Origin: an uncultured Rhodospirillaceae bacterium
GTDB taxonomy: Bacteria > Pseudomonadota > Alphaproteobacteria > SP197
Assembly: GCA_964530335.1 (NCBI GenBank)
Contig: CAZGYG010000004.1
Location: 8,104-72,103, forward strand
Length of the DNA: 64,000 bases
Reading direction: 5' to 3'
In this document: piece by piece, positions 31,830 through 40,836 of the stretch
Position numbering within the stretch: position 1 is the first letter of the stretch
How the letters are laid out: every line of letters starts with the position of its first letter
Program-made: the position numbers and the translations under genes
Notes under the pieces: generated by a model
What the model was told of the DNA's origin: nothing
Database searches by the model: none
The model's input: the letters and a program-made list of their open reading frames with translations, nothing else

Positions 31830-32846
31830 TCAATCGAGCGGCAGTGGCGCCAGCGGCGCCACCGGCACGAGACCGACGTTCAGGCGCCCGTCCTGCGCGG
31901 TCAGCGCGATCTCGGCGCGCCGGCCGCCCTGGCCGTCGTCGACGGCGACGGCGTCGAGCACGGCGCCGATGGCGAGGCCTTGAGTGGGGCTCAGGGCGCC
32001 GGTCCCGGTCAGCGTCGCGAGCATGTCGTCGTAGCCGGCGATCCTCATGGCGAAGGCGCCGAGCGGGCGAAATTCTTCGTCGAGCGTCACCGTGCCGGCG
32101 ATCTCGAGCTCGAGCGCGCCCCAGCGCAGGCGCGCGAGATCGAGTTCGAGCGCGCCGCCCGCGTCGCGCCAGCGCGCCAGCGCCGCGCGGCTGGCATCGG
32201 CGGGCGGTTGGCCCGGCAGGCGCGCGACCAGGATCGCCGCGTCGACGGTGGCGGGAAACCCGGCCGGCGGCGCCTCCGGCAGGGTCACGGCCGCGAGCTT
32301 GACGCCGAAGCTTCGTTGCACCTGGTCGTCGTCGTCCTCGCCCAGCTCGTAGCGCACCTGGACTTCGCCGGCCGTGATGACGTTCCCGCCCGGATCGGTG
32401 ATCACGAGGTCGCGCATGTCGACGCCGAGCTTGGCCAGATCGCCGCCGATGATGACGACCGCGATCTGGTTGACCCCCTGGGCGAGGCGAAACGTGCCGC
32501 CGGGCTGGCGCTCGAGCACGTGCTCCGGCGGCAGGGTGATGAGCCCGCGCGCGAAGTCCCACGGCTTGAACAGCCCGACCAGCCTGGGCGCCCGCCACGT
32601 CCACGCGCCATGGGCGTCCTGCCCGCCGAGCGTCACGTCGGCGACGGTGACGACAAGCTGGAACGGAAAGCCGGAGACCTCGACCGCGCCGTGCTCGGCG
32701 ATGTAGCCCTGCTGGCGCGTCGCCTCGAGCCATGTGTCGAGCCAATCCGGCACCCGGTCGGCGGTGACGTGCCAATAGACGATGTAGCCGAGCACGGCCA
32801 CCAGGACGATCGCGGGCAGGGCGAGCTTGCGCACGAGGGACGGCAT
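31830..32846 (-). CDS. DUF2125-like conserved alphaproteobacterial protein (N-terminal TM anchor)
   Basis: 338 aa. The N-terminal hydrophobic helix LALPAIVLVAVLGYIVYW is followed by a soluble domain. The DUF2125 assignment comes from recall of conserved neighbours of tyrC, not from a search. Confidence 0.5.
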   Translation of the reverse strand: MPSLVRKLALPAIVLVAVLGYIVYWHVTADRVPDWLDTWLEATRQQGYIAEHGAVEVSGFPFQLVVTVADVTLGGQDAHGAWTWRAPRLVGLFKPWDFARGLITLPPEHVLERQPGGTFRLAQGVNQIAVVIIGGDLAKLGVDMRDLVITDPGGNVITAGEVQVRYELGEDDDDQVQRSFGVKLAAVTLPEAPPAGFPATVDAAILVARLPGQPPADASRAALARWRDAGGALELDLARLRWGALELEIAGTVTLDEEFRPLGAFAMRIAGYDDMLATLTGTGALSPTQGLAIGAVLDAVAVDDGQGGRRAEIALTAQDGRLNVGLVPVAPLAPLPLD

Positions 32847-32922
32847 TGGTGACCTTGCGGCGGACGATCCAGGGCGTTATAGCCGCGCGGCCGGACGCGG
32901 GGAAGCGGGCGGAGTCTGGTCG

Positions 32923-33456
32923 GTGCGCGACATCTGGGTGTTTGCCTACGGCTCGCTCATGTGGCGGCCGGGCTTCGACCATCTCGAACGCCGGCCGGCG
33001 TTGTTGCGCGGCTATCATCGCTCGTTCTGCGTCTACAGCCACCATTACCGGGGCACGCCGGACCGGCCGGGGCTCGTGCTCGGGCTCGAACGCGGCGGCA
33101 GTTGCCGGGGCGTAGGCTTTCGGGTCGCGGCGGCCCACGCCGTAGAGGTGCTGGGCTACCTGGACGCGCGCGAGATCCCGCACGAGGTCTACCGCCGCCG
33201 TCTGGTGCCGGTCGAGCTGCAAGGCCGGGCGCGTGTGCCGGCCCACGCCTACGTGGTCCGGCGCGACCACGTGCAGTACGCGGGCCGGCTGCCGATCGCG
33301 CGGGCGGCCGAACTCATCCTCCAGGGCGTCGGGCGGAGCGGCCCGGCCCACGAGTACCTTGCCAACACGGTCGAGCACCTCGAAGCCATGGGCTTCCGCG
33401 ACCCCCGGCTGCACGAGCTCTACGTGCGCGTCCGCGCCCGGCTGGCTCGTGGCTGA
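32923..33456 (+). CDS. ChaC-like gamma-glutamylcyclotransferase
   Basis: Hallmark VFAYGSLMW motif plus catalytic Glu region. Start uncertain: GTG 32923 chosen, while TTG 32827 would overlap the divergent gene. Confidence 0.55.
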   Translation: MRDIWVFAYGSLMWRPGFDHLERRPALLRGYHRSFCVYSHHYRGTPDRPGLVLGLERGGSCRGVGFRVAAAHAVEVLGYLDAREIPHEVYRRRLVPVELQGRARVPAHAYVVRRDHVQYAGRLPIARAAELILQGVGRSGPAHEYLANTVEHLEAMGFRDPRLHELYVRVRARLARG

Positions 33457-33475
33457 GCTCGAACGGGGCGGCGGT

Positions 33476-36400
33476 TCACGCGCACTTGGAATAGCCGCAG
33501 CTCGTACACAGGTCGCAGCCTTCCTGGTGGATGACCGCGGCCTGGGCGCAGCGCGGGCACTGGCGCAGGCGCGGCGCCGTGTCGCCCACGGCACGAGCCA
33601 GCACCTCGGCGGAATACTTGCGCTCCTCCGGCGGCGCCATGAAACCGATGGCGACCATGTGGCGCTCGATCACCTCGCCGATCGCGGCGAGCAGCGAGGG
33701 CACGTAGCGCCCGTCCATCCACTGGCCGCCGCGCGGATCGAACACGGCCTTGAGCTCCTCGACCACGAACGAGACGTCGCCGCCGCGGCGGAACACGGCG
33801 CTGATCATGCGGGTCAGCGCCACGGTCCAGGCGAAGTGCTCCATGTTCTTCGAGTTGATGAACACCTCGAACGGGCGGCGGCGGCCGTCCTGCACCACGT
33901 CGTTGATGGTGATGTAGATGGCGTGTTCGCTGTCGGGCCAGCGCACCTTGTAGGTCGTGCCGGGCAGCACCTCGGGCCGGCTCAGCGGCTGGGTCATGTA
34001 GACCACGCCGCCGGCCTCGAAGGGGTCGGACGGGCGCACGGACTTGGGTGCCCCGAGCGGCAGCTCGGGCTCGCGCGGCTCGGCCGTTTCGAGCACGGCG
34101 CCCGTCACCTCGTTCGGCCGGTACGTCGTGCAGCCCTTGCAGCCGGTCTCGTAGGCCAGCCGGTAGATGTCCTTGAAATCCTCGAACGCGATGGATTCCG
34201 CGCAGTTGATCGTCTTCGAGATCGAGGCATCGACGTGGGCTTGTACCGCGGCCTGGACGCGCACGTGGTCGACGGGGGTCAGCGTCTGGGCGTCGACGAA
34301 GTAATCGGGCAGCGGCGCCTGTTCGCCGTACAGCCTGCGGTACAGGCGATAGGCGTAGTCGGTGACCGGCTCGGTGCGCCGCACCCCGTCGGGCATCAGC
34401 ACGTTGCGGTCGTAGGTGAAGGCGAACACCGGCTCGAGCCCCGAGGACACGTTGTCGGCGAGCAGCGAGATCGTGCCCGTCGGCGCGATCGAGGTCAGCA
34501 GGCCGTTGCGGATGCCGTAGGCGGCGATGGCGGCGCGCACGTCGGCGTCCAGCGCGGCTACGTTGGCGCCCGCGAGGAAGGGCTCGCGGTCGTACAGCGG
34601 GAACGGGCCGCGCTCGCGCGCGAGCTCGGTCGAGGCCAGGTACGCCGCGCGCCGCAGCGCCTTCATCCACTCCTGGATCAGGGCCAACGCGCGATCGGAG
34701 CTGTAGCGCGTGCGGCACATGATCAGCGCGTCGGCGAGCCCGGTGACGCCCAGCCCGATGCGCCGCTTGGCCAGGGCCTCGGCGCGCTGGGCCTCGAGCG
34801 GGAAGCGCGACACGTCGATGACGTTGTCCATCATGCGCACGGCGACGCCGACCAGCCGTTCGAGTTCCGCCTGGTCGAGGATCGCGTCGGCCTGGAAGGG
34901 CCGCTGCACGAGCCCGGCCAGGTTGATCGAGCCCAGGAGGCACGCGCCGTAGGGCGGCAATGGCTGTTCGCCACAGTTGTGGACGAGGATGCCGTTGGCA
35001 TCGAAGGCGTTGACGCCGGGGACGCGCGTGTCGAACACGTCGGCCTCGCCGTCCGGCTCGATCGCGGCGACCTCGGCGACGAATCGGGTGCGGTTGGGCG
35101 TTCGCCGATACGAGCCGATGAGCGCCGCGAGCCGGCGGCGCTTCGCGGTGTCGGCGAATCCGATCCGATCGGCGAACGTCACGAGCGCGTCGTTGGCGAT
35201 GATGAGCTCGTGCTGGGCCTTCGTGGCGTAGTCGCGCTGGCCACCCTTGCCGTCGGGCAGCACGGCCCGGCCGGCGGGGCGTCGGTCCCGATGAACGGTC
35301 GAGGCGATGCCGAGCCTCAACAGCATGCGCTGCACGGCCGCGAGCCGCGCGAGGTCGCTTTGCGCGAGCCTTACGCTGCCGCCCTTGACGTGATCGCCGA
35401 GAACCGTGCCGTCGGCGTCGAAGAAGCCGCGCAGGAAACCCCGGCAGAACGCCGCCGACGCCCGTTCGATGGCGGGCGTCACGACCTTGTTTCCCGGCGC
35501 CATGCCGAGCTCGATCGCGAGCCGGCGGAGCGCACCGAGCGCGAGCCGGTGCTCACCGCGCCCGGCGACCTCGGTCCAACCCGCGAAGTCGCCGCGGTGG
35601 GGCAGGGCGCGGGCCGCGGCGAGCGCCGCGGCCATGACGCCTTCGACTCCCGAGATCTCGGATTCGGCGTTGGCGGCGCGGCGCCGGCTCCAGACGCTGA
35701 GCACCGCCTTGTCGGCCTTGAGTGTACCGTCGCCCACGAGCAGGCCGATCAGGTAGCCCTCGCCGTCCGTTCCGGGCCCGGCCCAGTCGGGCATGGCGCG
35801 GTGGTCGTTGAGGACGATCCGATCGCCCGGGCGAAGGGCGCCGGCCTGGGTCCATTCGCCGTCGAGGCGAAAGCGCGTCATCGCCGCGACCCTTCGCACC
35901 GGATGGTCGGCCGTGAGCCGCAAGGCGTAGCCTTCGCGCGTGACCAGGCGCGTCACCGGCTTGCGCCCGGTGGGGAAGAAGCCGGCGGGATCCGAAGCGT
36001 GCGTCGTGCCGTCGACGACCGCGCCGAACGGGCGCCCGACCAGGTCGCGCACCTGACGCGGACCCTCGCTGGTATGGACCCAGGTCTCGGCCGTGACGCA
36101 CGGGTTCGTCGCGCTGATGGTCTCGCAGTAGGCGAGGTTGTTCGCCCGGTTGATACGGTCGATGAAGATGACGCCCGGCTCGGCGTAGGCGTAGGTCGCG
36201 CGCATGATGCGGTCCCACAGCTCGCGCGCGCGCACGCTGCGGTAGACCGTGCCGGCGAAGCCGAGCTCCCACGAGCGGTCTTCCTCGACCGCCGCCATGA
36301 AGGCGTCGGTCACCAGCACCGACAGGTTGAACATGCGCAGGCGCCCGGGCTCGCGCTTGGCGTCGATGAACGCCTCGATGTCCGGATGGTCGCAGCGCAG

Positions 36401-36901
36401 CGTCGCCATCATGGCGCCGCGCCGGTGCCCGGCGCTCATGATCGTGCGGCACATGGCGTCCCACACGTCCATGAAGCTCAGCGGACCCGAGGCGTCGGCG
36501 CCGACGCCCCTGACCGGGGCGCCCTTGGGCCGGAGCGTCGAGAAATCGTAGCCGATGCCGCCGCCCTGCTGCATCGTCAGCGCCGCTTCCTTCAAGTGGT
36601 CGAAAATTCCGGCCATGTCGTCCGGGATGCCGCCCATGACGAAGCAGTTGAACAGCGTCACCTTGCGCGTCGTCCCGGCGCCGGCGACGATCCGCCCCGC
36701 AGGCAGGAAGCGGAAGTCCCTGAGCGCTTCCTCGAACACGGGTATCCAACGCTCGGGCGCGGCTTCGGGCGCGGCCAGCGCCCGGGCGACGCGGCGCCAG
36801 GTGTCCTCGATGGTGCGGTCCATGGGCGTGCCGTCGGCGTCCTTCAGCCGGTACTTCATGTCCCAGATCTGCAGGGCGATCGGTGTCATGGATGTCGTCA
36901 T
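33476..36901 (-). CDS. nrdJ: Class II (adenosylcobalamin-dependent) ribonucleotide reductase NrdJ, interrupted by an in-frame intein
   Basis: ATG at 36901 with GAGGA RBS. The track ORF start (37654) extends into the upstream plsC gene. RNR class II motifs include the thiyl-radical motif TNP|CGEQ (split by the intein) and the C-terminal CxxC...CxxC tail (CPRCAQAAVIHQEGCDLCTSCGYSKCA). Total 1142 aa, of which 767 aa is extein. Confidence 0.9.
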   Translation of the reverse strand: MTTSMTPIALQIWDMKYRLKDADGTPMDRTIEDTWRRVARALAAPEAAPERWIPVFEEALRDFRFLPAGRIVAGAGTTRKVTLFNCFVMGGIPDDMAGIFDHLKEAALTMQQGGGIGYDFSTLRPKGAPVRGVGADASGPLSFMDVWDAMCRTIMSAGHRRGAMMATLRCDHPDIEAFIDAKREPGRLRMFNLSVLVTDAFMAAVEEDRSWELGFAGTVYRSVRARELWDRIMRATYAYAEPGVIFIDRINRANNLAYCETISATNPCVTAETWVHTSEGPRQVRDLVGRPFGAVVDGTTHASDPAGFFPTGRKPVTRLVTREGYALRLTADHPVRRVAAMTRFRLDGEWTQAGALRPGDRIVLNDHRAMPDWAGPGTDGEGYLIGLLVGDGTLKADKAVLSVWSRRRAANAESEISGVEGVMAAALAAARALPHRGDFAGWTEVAGRGEHRLALGALRRLAIELGMAPGNKVVTPAIERASAAFCRGFLRGFFDADGTVLGDHVKGGSVRLAQSDLARLAAVQRMLLRLGIASTVHRDRRPAGRAVLPDGKGGQRDYATKAQHELIIANDALVTFADRIGFADTAKRRRLAALIGSYRRTPNRTRFVAEVAAIEPDGEADVFDTRVPGVNAFDANGILVHNCGEQPLPPYGACLLGSINLAGLVQRPFQADAILDQAELERLVGVAVRMMDNVIDVSRFPLEAQRAEALAKRRIGLGVTGLADALIMCRTRYSSDRALALIQEWMKALRRAAYLASTELARERGPFPLYDREPFLAGANVAALDADVRAAIAAYGIRNGLLTSIAPTGTISLLADNVSSGLEPVFAFTYDRNVLMPDGVRRTEPVTDYAYRLYRRLYGEQAPLPDYFVDAQTLTPVDHVRVQAAVQAHVDASISKTINCAESIAFEDFKDIYRLAYETGCKGCTTYRPNEVTGAVLETAEPREPELPLGAPKSVRPSDPFEAGGVVYMTQPLSRPEVLPGTTYKVRWPDSEHAIYITINDVVQDGRRRPFEVFINSKNMEHFAWTVALTRMISAVFRRGGDVSFVVEELKAVFDPRGGQWMDGRYVPSLLAAIGEVIERHMVAIGFMAPPEERKYSAEVLARAVGDTAPRLRQCPRCAQAAVIHQEGCDLCTSCGYSKCA
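34976..36100 (-). mobile_element. Intein (375 aa) with LAGLIDADG homing endonuclease domain inserted at the active-site NPC|GEQ motif of nrdJ
   Basis: Begins with Cys (CVTAETWVHTSEG, block A) and has a TxxH block B (LTADHPV). It carries two LAGLIDADG motifs (YLIGLLVGDGTL and FLRGFFDADGTV). The C-terminal block G ends ...GILVHN and is followed by the +1 Cys, so excision regenerates TNPCGEQ. Confidence 0.85.
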
Positions 36902-36936
36902 GCAATGATCCTCGGGCCGCGCCGTGGCCCCGTAGC

Positions 36937-37698
36937 CTAGGGGCGGTGCGCGGACGGCGATTCGTCGTTCACGATATGTTTCACTATGTCCCCGCCGGCG
37001 TCCCGCGTCAACCGGTCCGCCGCGTCCTCGATGGCCTCGGTCAGACGGCGCACGAACTCGGCCCGGCCGAGGCCAGGGGGAATCGCCGGCAGGACCTCGA
37101 CGATCACGGCACCGGGCCGCTTGAGGAAGGTCTTGCGACCCCAATAGAGCCCGGAGTTGAGCGCCACGGGCACGACTGGCACGCCGAGCTGGGTGTAGAG
37201 CGCGGCGATCCCGGGGTGATAGCGCCGGCGCACGCCGGGCGGGGTGCGTGTGCCCTGGGGGAAGATGACGATGGTCTGGCCGCGCGCCAACGCCCGGCGG
37301 ACGCCGGCGATCATGCGGCGCAACGCGCCCGCGCCTCCGGTGCGGTCGACGGGGATCGCGCCGGCCCGCCAGGCATACCAGCCGGTGGGCAGGAACATGA
37401 GCTCGCTCTTCAGGACGAACGCCGGGTCGTTCAGGATGCGGTAGAACGCGATCGTTTCCCACGCCGACTGGTGGTTGGCGGCGATCACGGCCGGGCCATC
37501 GGGCAGCCGTTCGCGCCCGCGCAGCTCGAACCCGAGGCCGACCACGTGCCTGAGCAGCTCGACCAGGCCCCACGCCCACGCGCCGACCGCCCACGCCGCG
37601 CCCCGGCGCCCCGCCAGCAGCGGCGCGCAGGCGAGCGCGATGACCGCCGTCCACAGCACGGCGAGCAGGTTGAACGCGAGCGAACGCAGGGTTGTCAC
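36937..37698 (-). CDS. plsC: 1-acyl-sn-glycerol-3-phosphate acyltransferase (lysophospholipid acyltransferase family)
   Basis: GTG at 37698 overlaps the upstream stop (GTGA). HX4D-like motif region ANHQSAWE and PEGTR-like motif FPQGTRT. 254 aa. Confidence 0.75.
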   Translation of the reverse strand: MTTLRSLAFNLLAVLWTAVIALACAPLLAGRRGAAWAVGAWAWGLVELLRHVVGLGFELRGRERLPDGPAVIAANHQSAWETIAFYRILNDPAFVLKSELMFLPTGWYAWRAGAIPVDRTGGAGALRRMIAGVRRALARGQTIVIFPQGTRTPPGVRRRYHPGIAALYTQLGVPVVPVALNSGLYWGRKTFLKRPGAVIVEVLPAIPPGLGRAEFVRRLTEAIEDAADRLTRDAGGDIVKHIVNDESPSAHRP

Positions 37699-38321
37699 CC
37701 GCCGGGCCCCGCGATGTGGGCCACCAGGTACTTGAGGTACTCGCCGGCGAGCAGGGCGGCGGTTCCGGGCCGGTACCACCAGCCGTCCAGCCGCACGCTT
37801 TCGACGATGATGGGGTGCGGTTCGATCGTCACGCCGGGCATGGCGCGCTGGAATTCGAGCACGCTGCGCGGCATGTGGTAGTTGCCGGTCACCAGGCGGA
37901 TGGCACGGAAGCCATGGGCGGCGACCCACACCGCCGATTCGCGGGCGTTGCCGCGGGTGTCATCCGCCGCGTGGCCGAGCTCGACGCAGCACCGCACCGC
38001 CTCGGGAATCTCGCGGTCCAGCCGAAGCAGTTCGGCGACATCGACGCCACGGTAGACGCCGGAGACGAACAGCCGCGCCCCCGGGTTCGCGCGCAACAGG
38101 GCCAGCCCTGCCTCGAGCCGGCCGCTGCCACCGGTGAGCACGACGATGGCCTCGACCGGCGACGCGACGGCGGGCGCGCGTGGCACCTGGGCGATGAACC
38201 AGACCAGTCCGCCGAGCCAGGCCATTCCGGCGATCGCCGCGAACGCCGCTGCGAGTCGTGGCGCGGCCCCGGGCCCGAGGCGCGCGCCCCGCGCCCCGCG
38301 CCCGAAGCGGCCGCGCCGCCA
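37695..38321 (-). CDS. DUF218/YdcF(ElyC/SanA)-family protein
   Basis: ATG at 38321. The N-terminal TM helix (AAAFAAIAGMAWLGGLVWFIA) is followed by DUF218 motifs (IVVLTGGSGR...LFVSG...GNARES). 208 aa. The track start is a long out-of-frame extension overlapping ftsX. Confidence 0.6.
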   Translation of the reverse strand, partial: WRRGRFGRGARGARLGPGAAPRLAAAFAAIAGMAWLGGLVWFIAQVPRAPAVASPVEAIVVLTGGSGRLEAGLALLRANPGARLFVSGVYRGVDVAELLRLDREIPEAVRCCVELGHAADDTRGNARESAVWVAAHGFRAIRLVTGNYHMPRSVLEFQRAMPGVTIEPHPIIVESVRLDGWWYRPGTAALLAGEYLKYLVAHIAGPGG

Positions 38322-38347
38322 TGGGGCCATGTCCGGCCAGCGCGCCG

Positions 38348-39214
38348 TCAGGGCAGGCGGGCGAGCGCCCGCAGCACCGTCAACCGCGCGACACTCATCG
38401 CGAGCAGCGCGGCGGCCAGCGGCATCCCGGCCATGATCGTCCAGGCCAGGAGTTCGAGCTCGAGCCGGGGCAGCAGCGGCGCATCGAGGCTGCTCGCCAC
38501 CCGGCCGATCAGGCGGAACGCCGCGATCGCCAGGATCAGCCCGATCGCGCCGCCGACCAGGCCCGAGATCACGGCCTGGCGCTGGAACTGGCGCGCGATG
38601 AAGCCGTCCTCCGCGCCGATCAGGTGCAAGAGCTCGATGGCGTCGCGGTGCACCGCGAGCCCGGTGGTCGAGGTGAACACCACGGTCGCGATGCCCGCCA
38701 TCACGATCAGCGCGACGATCGCGTAGCCGATCATGCGCGTCGTATCCGCGGTGCGCGCGAGCGGCGCGAGCCACAGTTCGGCCGCGTCGATGCGGGCGTC
38801 CGGCGCAACCTCGGCCAGCGCCGCGCGAAGCGAGGAGCCGTCGCGCGCGGCCTCGGCGCCGAGCCGCACGTCGATCAGCTCGGGCAAGGGCAGGTCGCGT
38901 TCCGCCACGGCGCCAACCCAAGGCTCGATCAGCGCCGCGATCTCGGCCGCGGGCACCGGCTCGGCGCTGGTCACGTCGGGCAGCGCGCGCAGCGCCGCGA
39001 GGGTGGCGTCGAGCCGCGCCGGCGCGCCGTCGGCTGGCAACTCGACGGTCACGACGTCATCCAGGCTGGCGCGCCAGCGCGCGGCGGCGCCGCCCAGCGC
39101 CATGGCCGTGGCCAGCGCGAGCGCCGCCAGGAACACCATCAAGCCGATGATCCACGGCAGGAACCGGTCGGTAGGGTCGCCGCCGAGCGGCAACGACCAC
39201 GTGGCCCTGGTCAT
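38348..39214 (-). CDS. ftsX: Cell division ABC transporter permease FtsX
   Basis: 288 aa. N-terminal TM, periplasmic loop, and three C-terminal TM helices with FtsX-like motifs. Follows ftsE. Confidence 0.8.
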   Translation of the reverse strand: MTRATWSLPLGGDPTDRFLPWIIGLMVFLAALALATAMALGGAAARWRASLDDVVTVELPADGAPARLDATLAALRALPDVTSAEPVPAAEIAALIEPWVGAVAERDLPLPELIDVRLGAEAARDGSSLRAALAEVAPDARIDAAELWLAPLARTADTTRMIGYAIVALIVMAGIATVVFTSTTGLAVHRDAIELLHLIGAEDGFIARQFQRQAVISGLVGGAIGLILAIAAFRLIGRVASSLDAPLLPRLELELLAWTIMAGMPLAAALLAMSVARLTVLRALARLP

Positions 39215-39224
39215 GGCGCGTCCG

Positions 39225-39911
<687 letters not shown>

Positions 39912-40083
39912 TTCCCCGGGGCTTCGACCGCGCGCGCACCATGACACACGCCGCCGGGACGGGTCCAGCGCACAGGCTCGGCTTGCCAGCATCCGGGCCC
40001 GCTTCTATACAGGCCCGTGATCGCGTCCCATCGCGGCTCGGCCATCGCTTCGCGCGATCGCGGCCCGCGCCAACGGACCCGCC

Positions 40084-40836
40084 ATGATCCTGACCTGCCC
40101 GTCCTGCCATACCCGCTACACCATCGATCCGGCGACGCTCGGGCCACAAGGGCGCACGGTCCGTTGCGCCAAGTGTGCCCACACCTGGACCCAGATGCCG
40201 CCGGATTTGCCGGCCGAGGCGCCCGGGGCCGAAGTGCCCGCCGACAAGGCGCCGGAGGACGAATCGCCCGCGGACGCGATGCCGGCCGACGCGATAGCCG
40301 CGGACGAGACGCCCGCGCCGATCGCGGAGCCAGCTTCGCCGCCCGAGTCGCCGCCCTTGCGCACCCTTCCCGGGCGTGGCGGGCGGGCGAAGCGCTCGGG
40401 CGCCCGTGGCTGGCTCGTCGCCCTGATGGCGCTCGTCGTCGTCGCCGGGCTCGGTGCCGTCGTCGTGCTCGAGCGCGCGGCCGTCGTCGCCCGCTTCCCG
40501 CCGCTGGCTCCGCTGTTCGCCGCGCTCGGGCTGGCGTTGCCGGACCCGCTCGCGGGCCTGCGCATCGTCGACGCCCGGAACGAGTGGATCACCGAAGGTG
40601 AAACCGTCGTCGTCGTGGTGCGCGGCACCATCGTCAACGACGGCGACCGCGCCGTGGCGGTGCCCGCGGTGCGCGGCATCTTCCGCGACGCCGCCCACGG
40701 CGAGCTCGCCTCGTGGACGTTCGCCCCGGACGCCGACCGCCTGCTGCCCGGACAGTCGGTGTCGTTTCTCGATCGTTTCGCCGACCCGCCCGAAGGCGCC
40801 GTCGACCTGGCGGTCGTGCTCGTCCCCGGCTCGTGA
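40084..40836 (+). CDS. MJ0042-type zinc-ribbon protein with C-terminal DUF3426-like domain
   Basis: N-terminal CPSCHTRYTI...RCAKCAHTW zinc ribbon, then a Pro/Ala/Glu-rich linker, a TM helix and a C-terminal domain. Confidence 0.55.
   Translation: MILTCPSCHTRYTIDPATLGPQGRTVRCAKCAHTWTQMPPDLPAEAPGAEVPADKAPEDESPADAMPADAIAADETPAPIAEPASPPESPPLRTLPGRGGRAKRSGARGWLVALMALVVVAGLGAVVVLERAAVVARFPPLAPLFAALGLALPDPLAGLRIVDARNEWITEGETVVVVVRGTIVNDGDRAVAVPAVRGIFRDAAHGELASWTFAPDADRLLPGQSVSFLDRFADPPEGAVDLAVVLVPGS

What the first reader, a model, noticed from the sequence alone, without database searches (positions are those of the whole stretch)
34976..36100. Active-site intein with LAGLIDADG homing endonuclease splitting the B12-dependent ribonucleotide reductase nrdJ
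A 1125-bp in-frame insertion interrupts the thiyl-radical motif TNP|CGEQ of class II RNR. It has all the intein hallmarks: N-terminal Cys, TxxH, two LAGLIDADG motifs, C-terminal HN and a +1 Cys. This is a selfish mobile element embedded in an essential gene that is itself the last gene of an ftsEX-containing operon. The host insertion site (catalytic Cys) is the classic 'cannot-lose' intein niche. Intein-bearing nrdJ is patchily distributed, so this marks horizontal acquisition and could be a useful strain marker or a source of a new homing endonuclease specificity.
Basis: seen in the sequence. Interest (0 to 1): 0.75.

Follow-up and report, generated by a model that had tools for sequence, protein, structure and literature searches.

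The report
Ordinary intein in nrdJ active site

Summary
Observation confirmed to the base. nrdJ lies on the minus strand (ATG 36901, stop 33476-33478; 1141 aa). Window 34976-36100 (-) encodes a 375-aa insertion, residues 268-642, between ...ISATNP and CGEQPLPPYG. Fifty-seven intein-less orthologues (69-76% extein identity) read TNPCGEQ without interruption and have a gap at exactly those residues. The insert has Cys1, TADH (block B), two LAGLIDADG motifs (LIGLLVGDG, LRGFFDADG), block F Asp, terminal HN and a +1 Cys that aligns with the Cys322 position of Thermotoga maritima NrdJ. An AlphaFold model (pLDDT 93) matches endonuclease-bearing inteins best (TliVMA, PI-SceI, PI-PfuI). All splicing and endonuclease residues are kept in 44-46 of 46 homologues. 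The family is large: 647 representative clusters at E<=1e-30. At least 118 of 123 complete ones sit at xNP|C...HN|C. Dassa et al. [quoted passage not shown] Distribution is patchy (23 of 80 related genomes). Intein identity exceeds extein identity only in distant hosts, which fits horizontal spread. Codon composition gives no sign of recent arrival here. The ftsEX "operon" is a conserved gene order only; co-transcription is unproven. Verdict: real, correctly read, new member of a known kind, low interest.

The parts
33476..36901 (-). nrdJ precursor ORF: class II, B12-dependent ribonucleotide reductase, 1141 aa plus stop, including the intein
   Evidence: ORF and start codon. TIGR02504 NrdJ_Z 557.7 bits against cut-off 399.95. 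Pfam Ribonuc_red_lgC 5.7e-117, Ribonuc_red_lgN and TSCPD. Best PDB sequence match is T. maritima B12-dependent RNR, 8.1e-80.
36101..36901 (-). N-extein, residues 1-267, ending ...YCETISATNP
   Evidence: Aligns with intein-less orthologues up to TNP.
34976..36100 (-). Intein, 375 aa, precursor residues 268-642
   Evidence: Exact gap in 57 intein-less orthologues. LAGLIDADG_3 75.9 bits; Intein_splicing 30.2 bits. AF2 pLDDT 93.1. Foldseek top hits are endonuclease-bearing inteins.
35786..36100 (-). Hint (splicing) domain, N-terminal lobe, intein residues 1-105. Includes Cys1 (36098-36100) and block B TADH (35903-35914).
   Evidence: All-beta region E7-E97 in the model. C1, T63 and H66 invariant in 46/46 homologues. 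Sequence matches to RecA, GyrA and DnaB mini-inteins.
35099..35785 (-). LAGLIDADG homing-endonuclease domain, intein residues 106-334. Motif 1 LIGLLVGDG is at 35726-35752 and motif 2 LRGFFDADG at 35408-35434.
   Evidence: Pfam PF14528. Both motifs lie at the C-terminal ends of helices H112-124 and H216-230. Foldseek matches to I-DmoI, I-Tsp061I, PI-SceI and PI-PfuI. D124 is acidic in 46/46 and D230 is kept in 44/46.
34976..35098 (-). Hint domain, C-terminal lobe, intein residues 335-375. Blocks F and G are VFDTRVPGVNAFDANGILVHN (34976-35038); terminal His374-Asn375 is at 34976-34981.
   Evidence: TIGR01443 intein_Cterm 16.6 bits against cut-off 15.6. DnaB mini-intein 4o1r aligns to residues 340-375. 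D357 kept in 45/46; H374 and N375 in 46/46.
34973..34975 (-). +1 Cys codon (TGT), precursor residue 643. It serves both as the splicing nucleophile and as the Cys of the NPCGE loop of the RNR.
   Evidence: Aligns with residue 322 of T. maritima NrdJ. That Cys322 is the thiyl-radical site comes from my own knowledge of the T. maritima structure papers, not from a paper read here.
33479..34975 (-). C-extein, residues 643-1141, starting CGEQPLPPYG. Includes the TSCPD domain and a C-terminal Cys-rich tail (CPRC...CDLCTSCGYSKCA).
36983..37011 (-). Sigma-70-like promoter match (TTGACG-17-CATAGT) inside the 3' end of the upstream acyltransferase gene, about 80 nt before the nrdJ ATG. Function is not shown.
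   Evidence: 1 site found against 0.3 expected in shuffles. A consensus match only.

Best explanation
Window 34976-36100 (-) encodes a canonical class-1 intein with an inserted double-motif LAGLIDADG homing endonuclease. It sits in nrdJ immediately N-terminal to the Cys of the NPCGE active-site loop.

How it most likely works (inferred from conserved residues and the established intein mechanism, not observed here). The 124.8-kDa precursor cannot be an active reductase, because 375 residues separate Asn/Pro from Cys/Glu of the active-site loop. The Hint domain then splices itself out in four steps:
1. N-S acyl shift at Pro267-Cys268, assisted by block B Thr63/His66.
2. Trans-thioesterification by the +1 Cys643.
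3. Cyclisation of Asn375, assisted by His374 and block F Asp357.
4. S-N shift that re-forms the Pro-Cys peptide bond.
This yields an 84.7-kDa NrdJ with an intact TNPCGEQ loop and a free 40.2-kDa intein.

The free intein, through catalytic Asp124 and Asp230, is expected to cut intein-less nrdJ alleles at the very conserved site ...ACC AAC CCN|TGC GGC GAG CAG CCG.... Repair of that break then copies the intein in (homing). This would explain its patchy presence in Alphaproteobacteria and its spread across phyla.

Shown here: insertion geometry, fold, residue conservation and distribution. Inferred: splicing, cleavage and homing.
For: - Exact in-frame insertion. Its flanks rejoin to the motif found uninterrupted in 57 orthologues.
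- Host is NrdJ, and the +1 Cys aligns with T. maritima residue 322. N320, E324, C134 and C333 are conserved.
- C1, T63, H66, H374 and N375 are invariant in 46/46 homologues. D357 is kept in 45/46, D124 is acidic in 46/46, and D230 is kept in 44/46.
- The AF2 model has pLDDT 93.1 and pTM 0.91. Foldseek top hits are TliVMA, PI-SceI, PI-PfuI and PhoVMA (E 1e-17 to 1e-13), followed by I-DmoI, I-Tsp061I and the DnaB and RecA mini-inteins.
- The endonuclease domain is as conserved as the splicing domain (57.7% against 58.3% mean identity to the window intein). No mini-intein derivative is seen: lengths are 355-382 aa.
- The target DNA in 57 intein-less alleles is invariant at all first and second codon positions from ACC AAC CC to CCG CC.
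- Distribution is patchy: 23 of 80 loci, at least 14 changes on the extein tree. L054 is intein-free and about 90% identical in extein to the intein-bearing L003 and L006.
- Intein identity exceeds extein identity in a gammaproteobacterium (55.2 against 45.6%) and in Desulfobacteraceae, Nitrospiraceae, Firmicutes and an archaeal MAG.
- At least 118 of 123 complete representative homologues sit at xNP|C...HN|C.
Against: - No experiment: splicing, cleavage and homing are all inferred.
- Two curated splicing-domain HMMs fall just below their cut-offs: Pfam Intein_splicing 30.2 against 35.8, and TIGR01445 23.2 against 24.5. TIGR01443 passes.
- Within the alphaproteobacterial set, no intein pair is more similar than its exteins (0 of 189 pairs). 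Recent transfer among close relatives is therefore not shown. Patchiness there could equally come from repeated precise loss.
- Intein composition matches the host (GC 72.5% against 69.6%; GC3 0.90 against 0.95; codon score within the range of neighbouring genes), so nothing marks a recent arrival.
- The NJ tree is from one protein and is poorly resolved, so the count of 14 changes is rough.
Confidence: 0.88

Rival explanations
1. Splicing-competent intein whose endonuclease is no longer active. This would be the late stage of the homing cycle, with the intein fixed in the lineage. It persists only because imprecise loss would destroy the essential active site.
For: Composition is fully adapted to the host, so residence has been long. 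No alphaproteobacterial intein pair is closer than its exteins, so no recent homing is visible. Activity cannot be read from sequence alone.
Against: Both catalytic Asp residues and both LAGLIDADG motifs are intact. The endonuclease domain is as conserved as the Hint domain across 46 homologues, with 58 of 229 columns at >=90%. No shortened or mini-intein variants occur among the relatives. A decaying endonuclease would be expected to show deletions and loss of the acidic residues.
Confidence: 0.25
2. The intein has been co-opted as a post-translational switch (conditional protein splicing). For example, a redox-sensitive Cys1/Cys+1 pair could delay NrdJ maturation under oxidising conditions.
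For: Only circumstantial. Cys1 and the +1 Cys flank the splice junction. Conditional splicing triggered by redox state, temperature or salt has been reported for other inteins (review PMC7765530). The intein is retained in many lineages.
Against: Nothing in the sequence is specific to regulation. Closest relatives do well without the intein (57 of 80 loci). The patchy distribution fits a selfish element better than a host function.
Confidence: 0.06
3. A lineage-specific, non-splicing insertion domain of NrdJ, or a pseudogene or assembly artefact.
For: Pfam Intein_splicing and TIGR01445 fall just below their curated cut-offs.
Against: The reading frame is open over 1141 codons. The insert splits the NPCGE active-site loop, which cannot work with 375 residues inside it. 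All splicing residues are invariant. The Hint plus LAGLIDADG fold is predicted with pLDDT 93 and matches solved inteins. Independent genomes carry allelic copies.
Confidence: 0.01

Closest known systems
Allelic family of contiguous RNR inteins inserted directly N-terminal to the thiyl-radical Cys of class I/II ribonucleotide reductases (InBase 'RIR1' inteins at this site)
   Same: Same insertion point (xNP|C...HN|C-x-E), found in at least 118 of 123 complete representative homologues. Same architecture: Hint plus double LAGLIDADG, about 370-380 aa. Dassa et al. [quoted passage not shown] NCBIfam NF006207, a model of intein-bearing B12 RNRs, aligns continuously through the intein end into the C-extein: profile positions 935-1557 against precursor residues 303-932.
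   Different: The sequence is new. The best match in 1.84 billion representatives is 66% identical, and the exact precursor is not on record. The host is an unnamed high-GC alphaproteobacterium whose NrdJ extein is at most about 76% identical to any genome representative.
PI-SceI (yeast VMA1 intein), the TliVMA and PhoVMA inteins, and PI-PfuI (Pyrococcus furiosus intein endonuclease): solved endonuclease-bearing inteins
   Same: Best structural matches: Foldseek E 1.7e-17 to 2e-13, TM about 0.55-0.62. All share the two-domain layout of a Hint domain split by a LAGLIDADG endonuclease.
   Different: Only 12-15% sequence identity, and no significant sequence-level hit to them. The window intein is smaller, 375 aa against 361-454 in most of these chains. 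The VMA inteins are in a different host protein.
Split NrdJ-1 and NrdA-2 inteins of 'fractured genes' (Dassa et al. 2009)
   Same: Same host enzyme family and the same active-site loop. The NrdA split inteins use the identical integration point.
   Different: Those are split inteins with a free-standing endonuclease gene between the halves. NrdJ-1 is inserted one residue further C-terminal. The window element is contiguous, with an embedded LAGLIDADG domain.
Mini-inteins (Ssp/Npu DnaB, Mtu RecA, Mxe GyrA)
   Same: Blocks A, B, F and G are similar at sequence level. Examples: 4o1r DnaB at 6.7e-6 over residues 340-375, and PI-MtuI over residues 26-99.
   Different: They lack an endonuclease domain and sit in other host proteins.

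Membership tests
Intein (class 1, Hint-domain protein-splicing element) | In-frame insertion in a conserved host protein, absent from orthologues, whose flanks rejoin to the conserved host sequence | tested here: met
   57 intein-less orthologues have a gap at exactly residues 268-642 and read TNPCGEQPLPP.
Intein (class 1, Hint-domain protein-splicing element) | Block A N-terminal nucleophile (Cys/Ser) and block B TxxH | tested here: met
   Cys1 and T63-A-D-H66; all three catalytic positions are invariant in 46/46 homologues.
Intein (class 1, Hint-domain protein-splicing element) | Block F Asp, block G penultimate His and terminal Asn, and a +1 Cys/Ser/Thr nucleophile | tested here: met
   D357 kept in 45/46; H374 and N375 in 46/46; +1 Cys643.
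Intein (class 1, Hint-domain protein-splicing element) | Hint fold | tested here: met
   AF2 pLDDT 93.1. Foldseek matches to solved inteins at probability 1.00, including the DnaB and RecA mini-inteins.
Intein (class 1, Hint-domain protein-splicing element) | Curated HMM thresholds for the splicing domain | tested here: inconclusive
   TIGR01443 intein_Cterm passes (16.6 against 15.6). TIGR01445 intein_Nterm (23.2 against 24.5) and Pfam Intein_splicing (30.2 against 35.8) narrowly miss. These are database cut-offs, not mechanistic criteria.
Intein (class 1, Hint-domain protein-splicing element) | Demonstrated protein splicing | not testable with these tools
   Needs expression followed by SDS-PAGE or mass spectrometry.
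LAGLIDADG homing endonuclease (double-motif, monomeric) | Two LAGLIDADG motifs, each ending in a catalytic acidic residue | tested here: met
   LIGLLVGDG (D124) and LRGFFDADG (D230). The position is acidic in 46/46 and 44/46 homologues respectively. PF14528 scores 75.9 bits against cut-off 22.5.
LAGLIDADG homing endonuclease (double-motif, monomeric) | Pseudo-dimeric alpha-beta-beta-alpha-beta-beta-alpha fold with the motif helices at the interface | tested here: met
   Model helices 112-124 and 216-230 carry the motifs, and each is followed by beta-hairpins. Foldseek hits to I-DmoI and I-Tsp061I at about 1e-6.
LAGLIDADG homing endonuclease (double-motif, monomeric) | Site-specific cleavage of the intein-less allele, and homing | not testable with these tools
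   Only indirect support: a conserved target DNA and patchy, cross-phylum distribution.
Class II (adenosylcobalamin-dependent) ribonucleotide reductase NrdJ | Equivalog HMM above cut-off and the RNR barrel | tested here: met
   TIGR02504 scores 557.7 against 399.95; PF02867 at 5.7e-117.
Class II (adenosylcobalamin-dependent) ribonucleotide reductase NrdJ | Active-site Cys/Asn/Glu loop and the redox Cys pair | tested here: met
   The spliced sequence aligns with T. maritima NrdJ (1xje) with N320, C322, E324, C134 and C333 all conserved.
Class II (adenosylcobalamin-dependent) ribonucleotide reductase NrdJ | B12 dependence of catalysis | not testable with these tools
   Inferred from family membership only.
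RNR thiyl-Cys allelic intein family | Same insertion point, immediately N-terminal to the Cys of NPC-x-E | tested here: met
   At least 118 of 123 complete representative homologues and 23 of 23 related genome loci share xNP|C...HN|C. Literature description of the site.
ftsEX operon member | Co-transcription with ftsE and ftsX | not testable with these tools
   Gene order ftsE-ftsX-DUF218-acyltransferase-nrdJ is conserved: the acyltransferase is adjacent in 47 of 69 loci. The gap is 35 nt in the window. A promoter-like site lies upstream of nrdJ, and no terminator was found between the genes.

The most novel reading that the evidence does not exclude
The intein is not purely selfish. It acts as a conditional-splicing switch on NrdJ. 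Because Cys1 and the +1 active-site Cys flank the junction, an oxidising environment or another stress could trap the precursor and hold back dNTP synthesis until conditions improve. The uniform retention of a full-length, well-conserved element across hundreds of lineages would then partly reflect host benefit.
Probability: 0.05. Interest if true: 0.5.

Novelty: new member of a known kind. Interest (0 to 1): 0.15.

Why it matters
It matters little beyond annotation. The gene should be annotated as an intein-containing nrdJ, with mature NrdJ of 766 aa. The intein should be removed before any RNR phylogeny. It adds one more sequence, at most 66% identical to any relative, to a very large allelic family at the best-known RNR intein site. 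Practical uses are modest. It offers a splicing domain adapted to a Pro(-1)/Cys(+1) junction and a LAGLIDADG enzyme expected to recognise the conserved ACC-AAC-CCN-TGC-GGC-GAG-CAG site. Presence or absence of the intein also separates otherwise close relatives with about 90% extein identity.

Tried and rejected
- Rfam scan of 32500-40500 at E<=1 gave no riboswitch or other RNA family near nrdJ.
- Search for NrdR boxes in the 300 nt upstream of nrdJ in the window and 69 related loci. Best scores are no better than shuffled sequence, so no NrdR regulation is inferred.
- Composition and codon-usage test for recent horizontal arrival. Intein GC is 72.5% against 69.6% for the exteins and GC3 is 0.90 against 0.95. 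The codon score of -0.83 lies within the neighbour-gene range of -0.70 to -0.90. There is no anomaly.
- Exact look-up of the precursor in public assemblies found nothing on record. No genome representative is more than about 76% identical in the extein. The organism is therefore only placed as a high-GC alphaproteobacterium near Rhodospirillales-type MAGs.
- tblastn of extein and intein against the whole window found no second RNR paralogue and no second intein in these 64 kb.
- Test for intein identity exceeding extein identity among alphaproteobacterial pairs gave 0 of 189. The horizontal-transfer signal comes only from patchiness and from distant hosts.
- Literature searches for a citable statement on T. 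maritima C322 and for 'class II ribonucleotide reductase' plus 'insertion site' found nothing in the held library. The role of C322 is therefore marked as my own knowledge.
- The antisense ORFs over the region (for example 33233..36940 +, 1235 aa) are dismissed as artefacts of 71% GC. The minus-strand frame carries all homology.
Full report
**Observation.** The region lies in one long minus-strand ORF (33476..37654). The biologically sensible start is ATG 36901, preceded by GAGGA. This gives a 1141-aa product ending ...CGYSKCA. Related genomes align from residues 1-8 onward, which supports that start.

Window 34976-36100, read on the minus strand, is 1125 nt = 375 codons in frame. It covers precursor residues 268-642 and is flanked by YCETISATNP | CVTAETWVHT...DANGILVHN | CGEQPLPPYG.
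- Cys1, 36098-36100
- TADH, 35903-35914
- LIGLLVGDG, 35726-35752
- LRGFFDADG, 35408-35434
- HN, 34976-34981
- +1 Cys, 34973-34975

The only slip is '1142 aa', which counts the stop codon.

**What the host gene is.** The precursor hits NCBIfam TIGR02504 (NrdJ_Z, adenosylcobalamin-dependent RNR) at 557.7 bits against a cut-off of 399.95. It also hits Pfam Ribonuc_red_lgC (5.7e-117, one envelope spanning 85-927 across the insert), Ribonuc_red_lgN and TSCPD.

With the insert removed, the 766-aa sequence aligns best to the Thermotoga maritima B12-dependent RNR (1xje, 8.1e-80). In that alignment ATNPCGEQPLPPYGAC pairs with STNPCGEIGLSDYEAC. The +1 Cys therefore corresponds to T. maritima residue 322. 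N320, E324, C333 and C134 are also conserved. That C322 is the thiyl-radical cysteine is my recollection of the structural literature; I could not find a citable paper in the held library. All RNRs use an active-site thiyl radical (PMC6370689).

**Is it an insertion?** A scan of one genome per species returned 80 related loci. Twenty-three carry an insert at the same place (TNP|C[V/I/L]...HN|CGE). Fifty-seven read TNPCGEQPLPPYG without interruption. In a joint alignment, those 57 (69-76% identical to the window extein) have no residue in the 375 intein columns, and the gap edges are exactly 268 and 642.

**Is it an intein with a homing endonuclease?**
- *Sequence.* LAGLIDADG_3 scores 75.9 bits (cut-off 22.5). 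TIGR01443 intein_Cterm scores 16.6 (cut-off 15.6). Pfam Intein_splicing (30.2 against 35.8) and TIGR01445 (23.2 against 24.5) narrowly miss. The C-terminal 36 residues align with a DnaB mini-intein (4o1r, 6.7e-6) and residues 26-99 with the RecA intein PI-MtuI. A profile of homologues also picks up GyrA, DnaX and RadA inteins.
- *Structure.* An AlphaFold2 model built on 34 homologues has mean pLDDT 93.1 and pTM 0.91. It shows a beta-rich N-lobe (residues 7-97), a helix/sheet middle domain whose helices 112-124 and 216-230 end in the two LAGLIDADG motifs, and a beta C-lobe (341-374). Foldseek against the PDB ranks endonuclease-bearing inteins first: TliVMA 1.7e-17, PI-SceI about 1e-14, PI-PfuI 4.3e-14, PhoVMA and PI-TkoII. 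Free LAGLIDADG enzymes follow (I-Tsp061I, I-DmoI, about 1e-6), then mini-inteins.
- *Residues.* Across 46 complete homologues, C1, T63, H66, H374 and N375 are invariant. Block F D357 is kept in 45/46. The two catalytic acidic positions are D/E in 46/46 (D124) and D in 44/46 (D230).
- *Endonuclease state.* The endonuclease domain is as conserved as the splicing domain (57.7% against 58.3% mean identity to the window intein). Lengths stay within 355-382 aa, so there is no sign of endonuclease decay or of mini-intein formation.

**How it most likely works.** The precursor cannot be an active reductase with 375 residues inside the NPCGE loop. The standard class-1 pathway is inferred:
1. N-S acyl shift at Pro267-Cys268.
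2. Trans-thioesterification to Cys643.
3. Asn375 cyclisation.
4. S-N shift.

This gives an 84.7-kDa NrdJ and a 40.2-kDa intein (masses). The same cysteine serves the intein as +1 nucleophile and the host as its active-site Cys. That explains why neither imprecise deletion nor mutation of the junction is tolerated.

The target DNA in the 57 empty alleles is invariant at every first and second codon position from ACC AAC CC through TGC GGC GAG CAG CCG CTG CCG CC. A homing endonuclease could rely on such a site. Splicing, cleavage and homing were not and cannot be observed here.

**Distribution and history.** On a neighbour-joining tree of 76 full-length exteins, the 19 intein-bearing sequences are scattered and need at least 14 presence/absence changes. 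For example, L054 lacks the intein but is about 90% identical in extein to L003 and L006, which both have it. Their inteins are 72% identical to each other.

Within the Alphaproteobacteria, no intein pair is more similar than its exteins (0 of 189 pairs). Repeated precise loss therefore cannot be separated from repeated gain.

Across larger distances the picture inverts. A gammaproteobacterial allele is 55.2% identical in the intein but 45.6% in the extein. Alleles from Desulfobacteraceae, Nitrospiraceae, Firmicutes, Anaerolineales and a Diapherotrites archaeon are 53-61% identical in the intein against 40-48% in the adjoining, highly conserved extein segments. That decoupling is what horizontal spread predicts.

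In the window itself the intein is compositionally at home: GC 72.5% against 69.6%, GC3 0.90 against 0.95, and a codon score within the range of neighbouring genes. There is no evidence of recent arrival.

**How common it is.** An exhaustive HMMER search of 1.84 billion representatives found 2803 hits at E<=1e-3 and 647 at E<=1e-30. The best is 66% identical. Of 123 complete hits with both flanks, at least 118 have xNP|C at the N-junction, and nearly all have HN|C-x-E at the C-junction, in several RNR subtypes (CGEQ, CGEI, CAEI, CSEI...).

NCBIfam NF006207, a model of intein-bearing B12 RNRs, aligns continuously from the intein into the C-extein. The model therefore contains an allelic intein.

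Dassa et al. [quoted passage not shown] RNRdb had already curated about 80 RNR inteins by 2009 (PMC2795772). The element is therefore a new sequence of a well-known kind.

**Surroundings.** Upstream on the same strand lie:
- ftsE (39228-39992, ABC_tran)
- ftsX (38351-39214)
- a DUF218 protein
- a PlsC-type acyltransferase (stop at 36937-36939, 35 nt before nrdJ)

Downstream is a convergent chaC-like gene (32827-33456 +). This order is conserved: ftsE, ftsX and DUF218 are found upstream in most related loci, and the acyltransferase is directly adjacent in 47 of 69, whether or not the intein is present.

The one sigma-70-like match in 7.5 kb (37011..36983, minus strand) lies just upstream of nrdJ. 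No terminator-like site separates the genes. No Rfam family and no NrdR box above chance were found. 'Operon' is thus plausible but unproven.

**Verdict.** It is a new member of a known kind and of low interest. The most novel reading not excluded, a conditional-splicing switch on NrdJ, has no specific support.

**Side observation.** A group of free-standing 374-aa proteins in Syntrophorhabdales MAGs is 40-42% identical to this intein over its whole length. They lack Cys1, the +1 Cys and any extein. They sit in a conserved non-RNR locus. This is more unusual than the finding itself, but it lies outside the window.

Noticed in passing
L081:6001-7125; L082 and L083:4001-5125; L084:194-1318 (Syntrophorhabdales MAG contigs, not the window): These are free-standing 374-aa Hint+LAGLIDADG proteins (P0098, P0107, P0112, P0117 and others). 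They are 40-42% identical to the window intein over 100% of its length. They have their own ATG, Ser/Gly in place of Cys1, a stop two codons after the HN, and no extein. TxxH and both LAGLIDADG acidic residues are kept. They always sit between a 628-aa ORF with no Pfam hit and a 180-aa ORF, followed by a TPM-domain gene, and are not in nrdJ. They look like a domesticated or free-living descendant of the RNR active-site intein, comparable to yeast HO.
   Followed up: partly
window 36983-37011 (-): This is the only sigma-70-like promoter match in 33000-40500 (TTGACG-17-CATAGT). It lies inside the 3' end of the acyltransferase gene, about 80 nt upstream of the nrdJ ATG. It suggests nrdJ may have its own promoter rather than depending on ftsEX transcription.
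   Followed up: partly
window 36937-39992 (-) and 32827-33456 (+): The gene order is conserved: ftsE, ftsX, DUF218 (YdcF-like), PlsC-type acyltransferase, nrdJ, then a convergent chaC-like gene and DUF2125. The same order is found in most of 69 related alphaproteobacterial loci, whether or not the intein is present.
   Followed up: yes
window 33233-36940 (+), also 33420-34943 (-) and 35553-36905 (-): Very long alternative-frame and antisense ORFs (up to 1235 aa) overlap nrdJ. They have no homology support and are the expected artefact of about 71% GC.
   Followed up: partly
proteins P0123, P0130, P0173, P0177 (representative library); P0178: Some RNR homologues of 1600-1900 aa match the intein in 4-5 separate stretches, so they are probably multi-intein RNRs. 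P0178 has the intein one residue further C-terminal (CNPC|C...SN|SEQM, +1 Ser). Dassa et al. 2009 described that point for the split NrdJ-1 intein.
   Followed up: no
proteins P0003, P0077, P0109: Several database gene calls for intein-bearing NrdJ on long contigs end in out-of-frame, Arg/Pro/Ser-rich tails or are cut inside the intein. This looks like frameshift errors in high-GC assemblies or split gene calls. Length-based surveys of this intein in metagenome proteins will undercount intact copies.
   Followed up: no
window 33479-33580 (-): The NrdJ C-terminus carries a Cys-rich tail (CPRCAQAAVIHQEGCDLCTSCGYSKCA) after a TSCPD domain. From memory, it resembles the zinc-finger-like tail described for many class II RNRs.
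   Followed up: no
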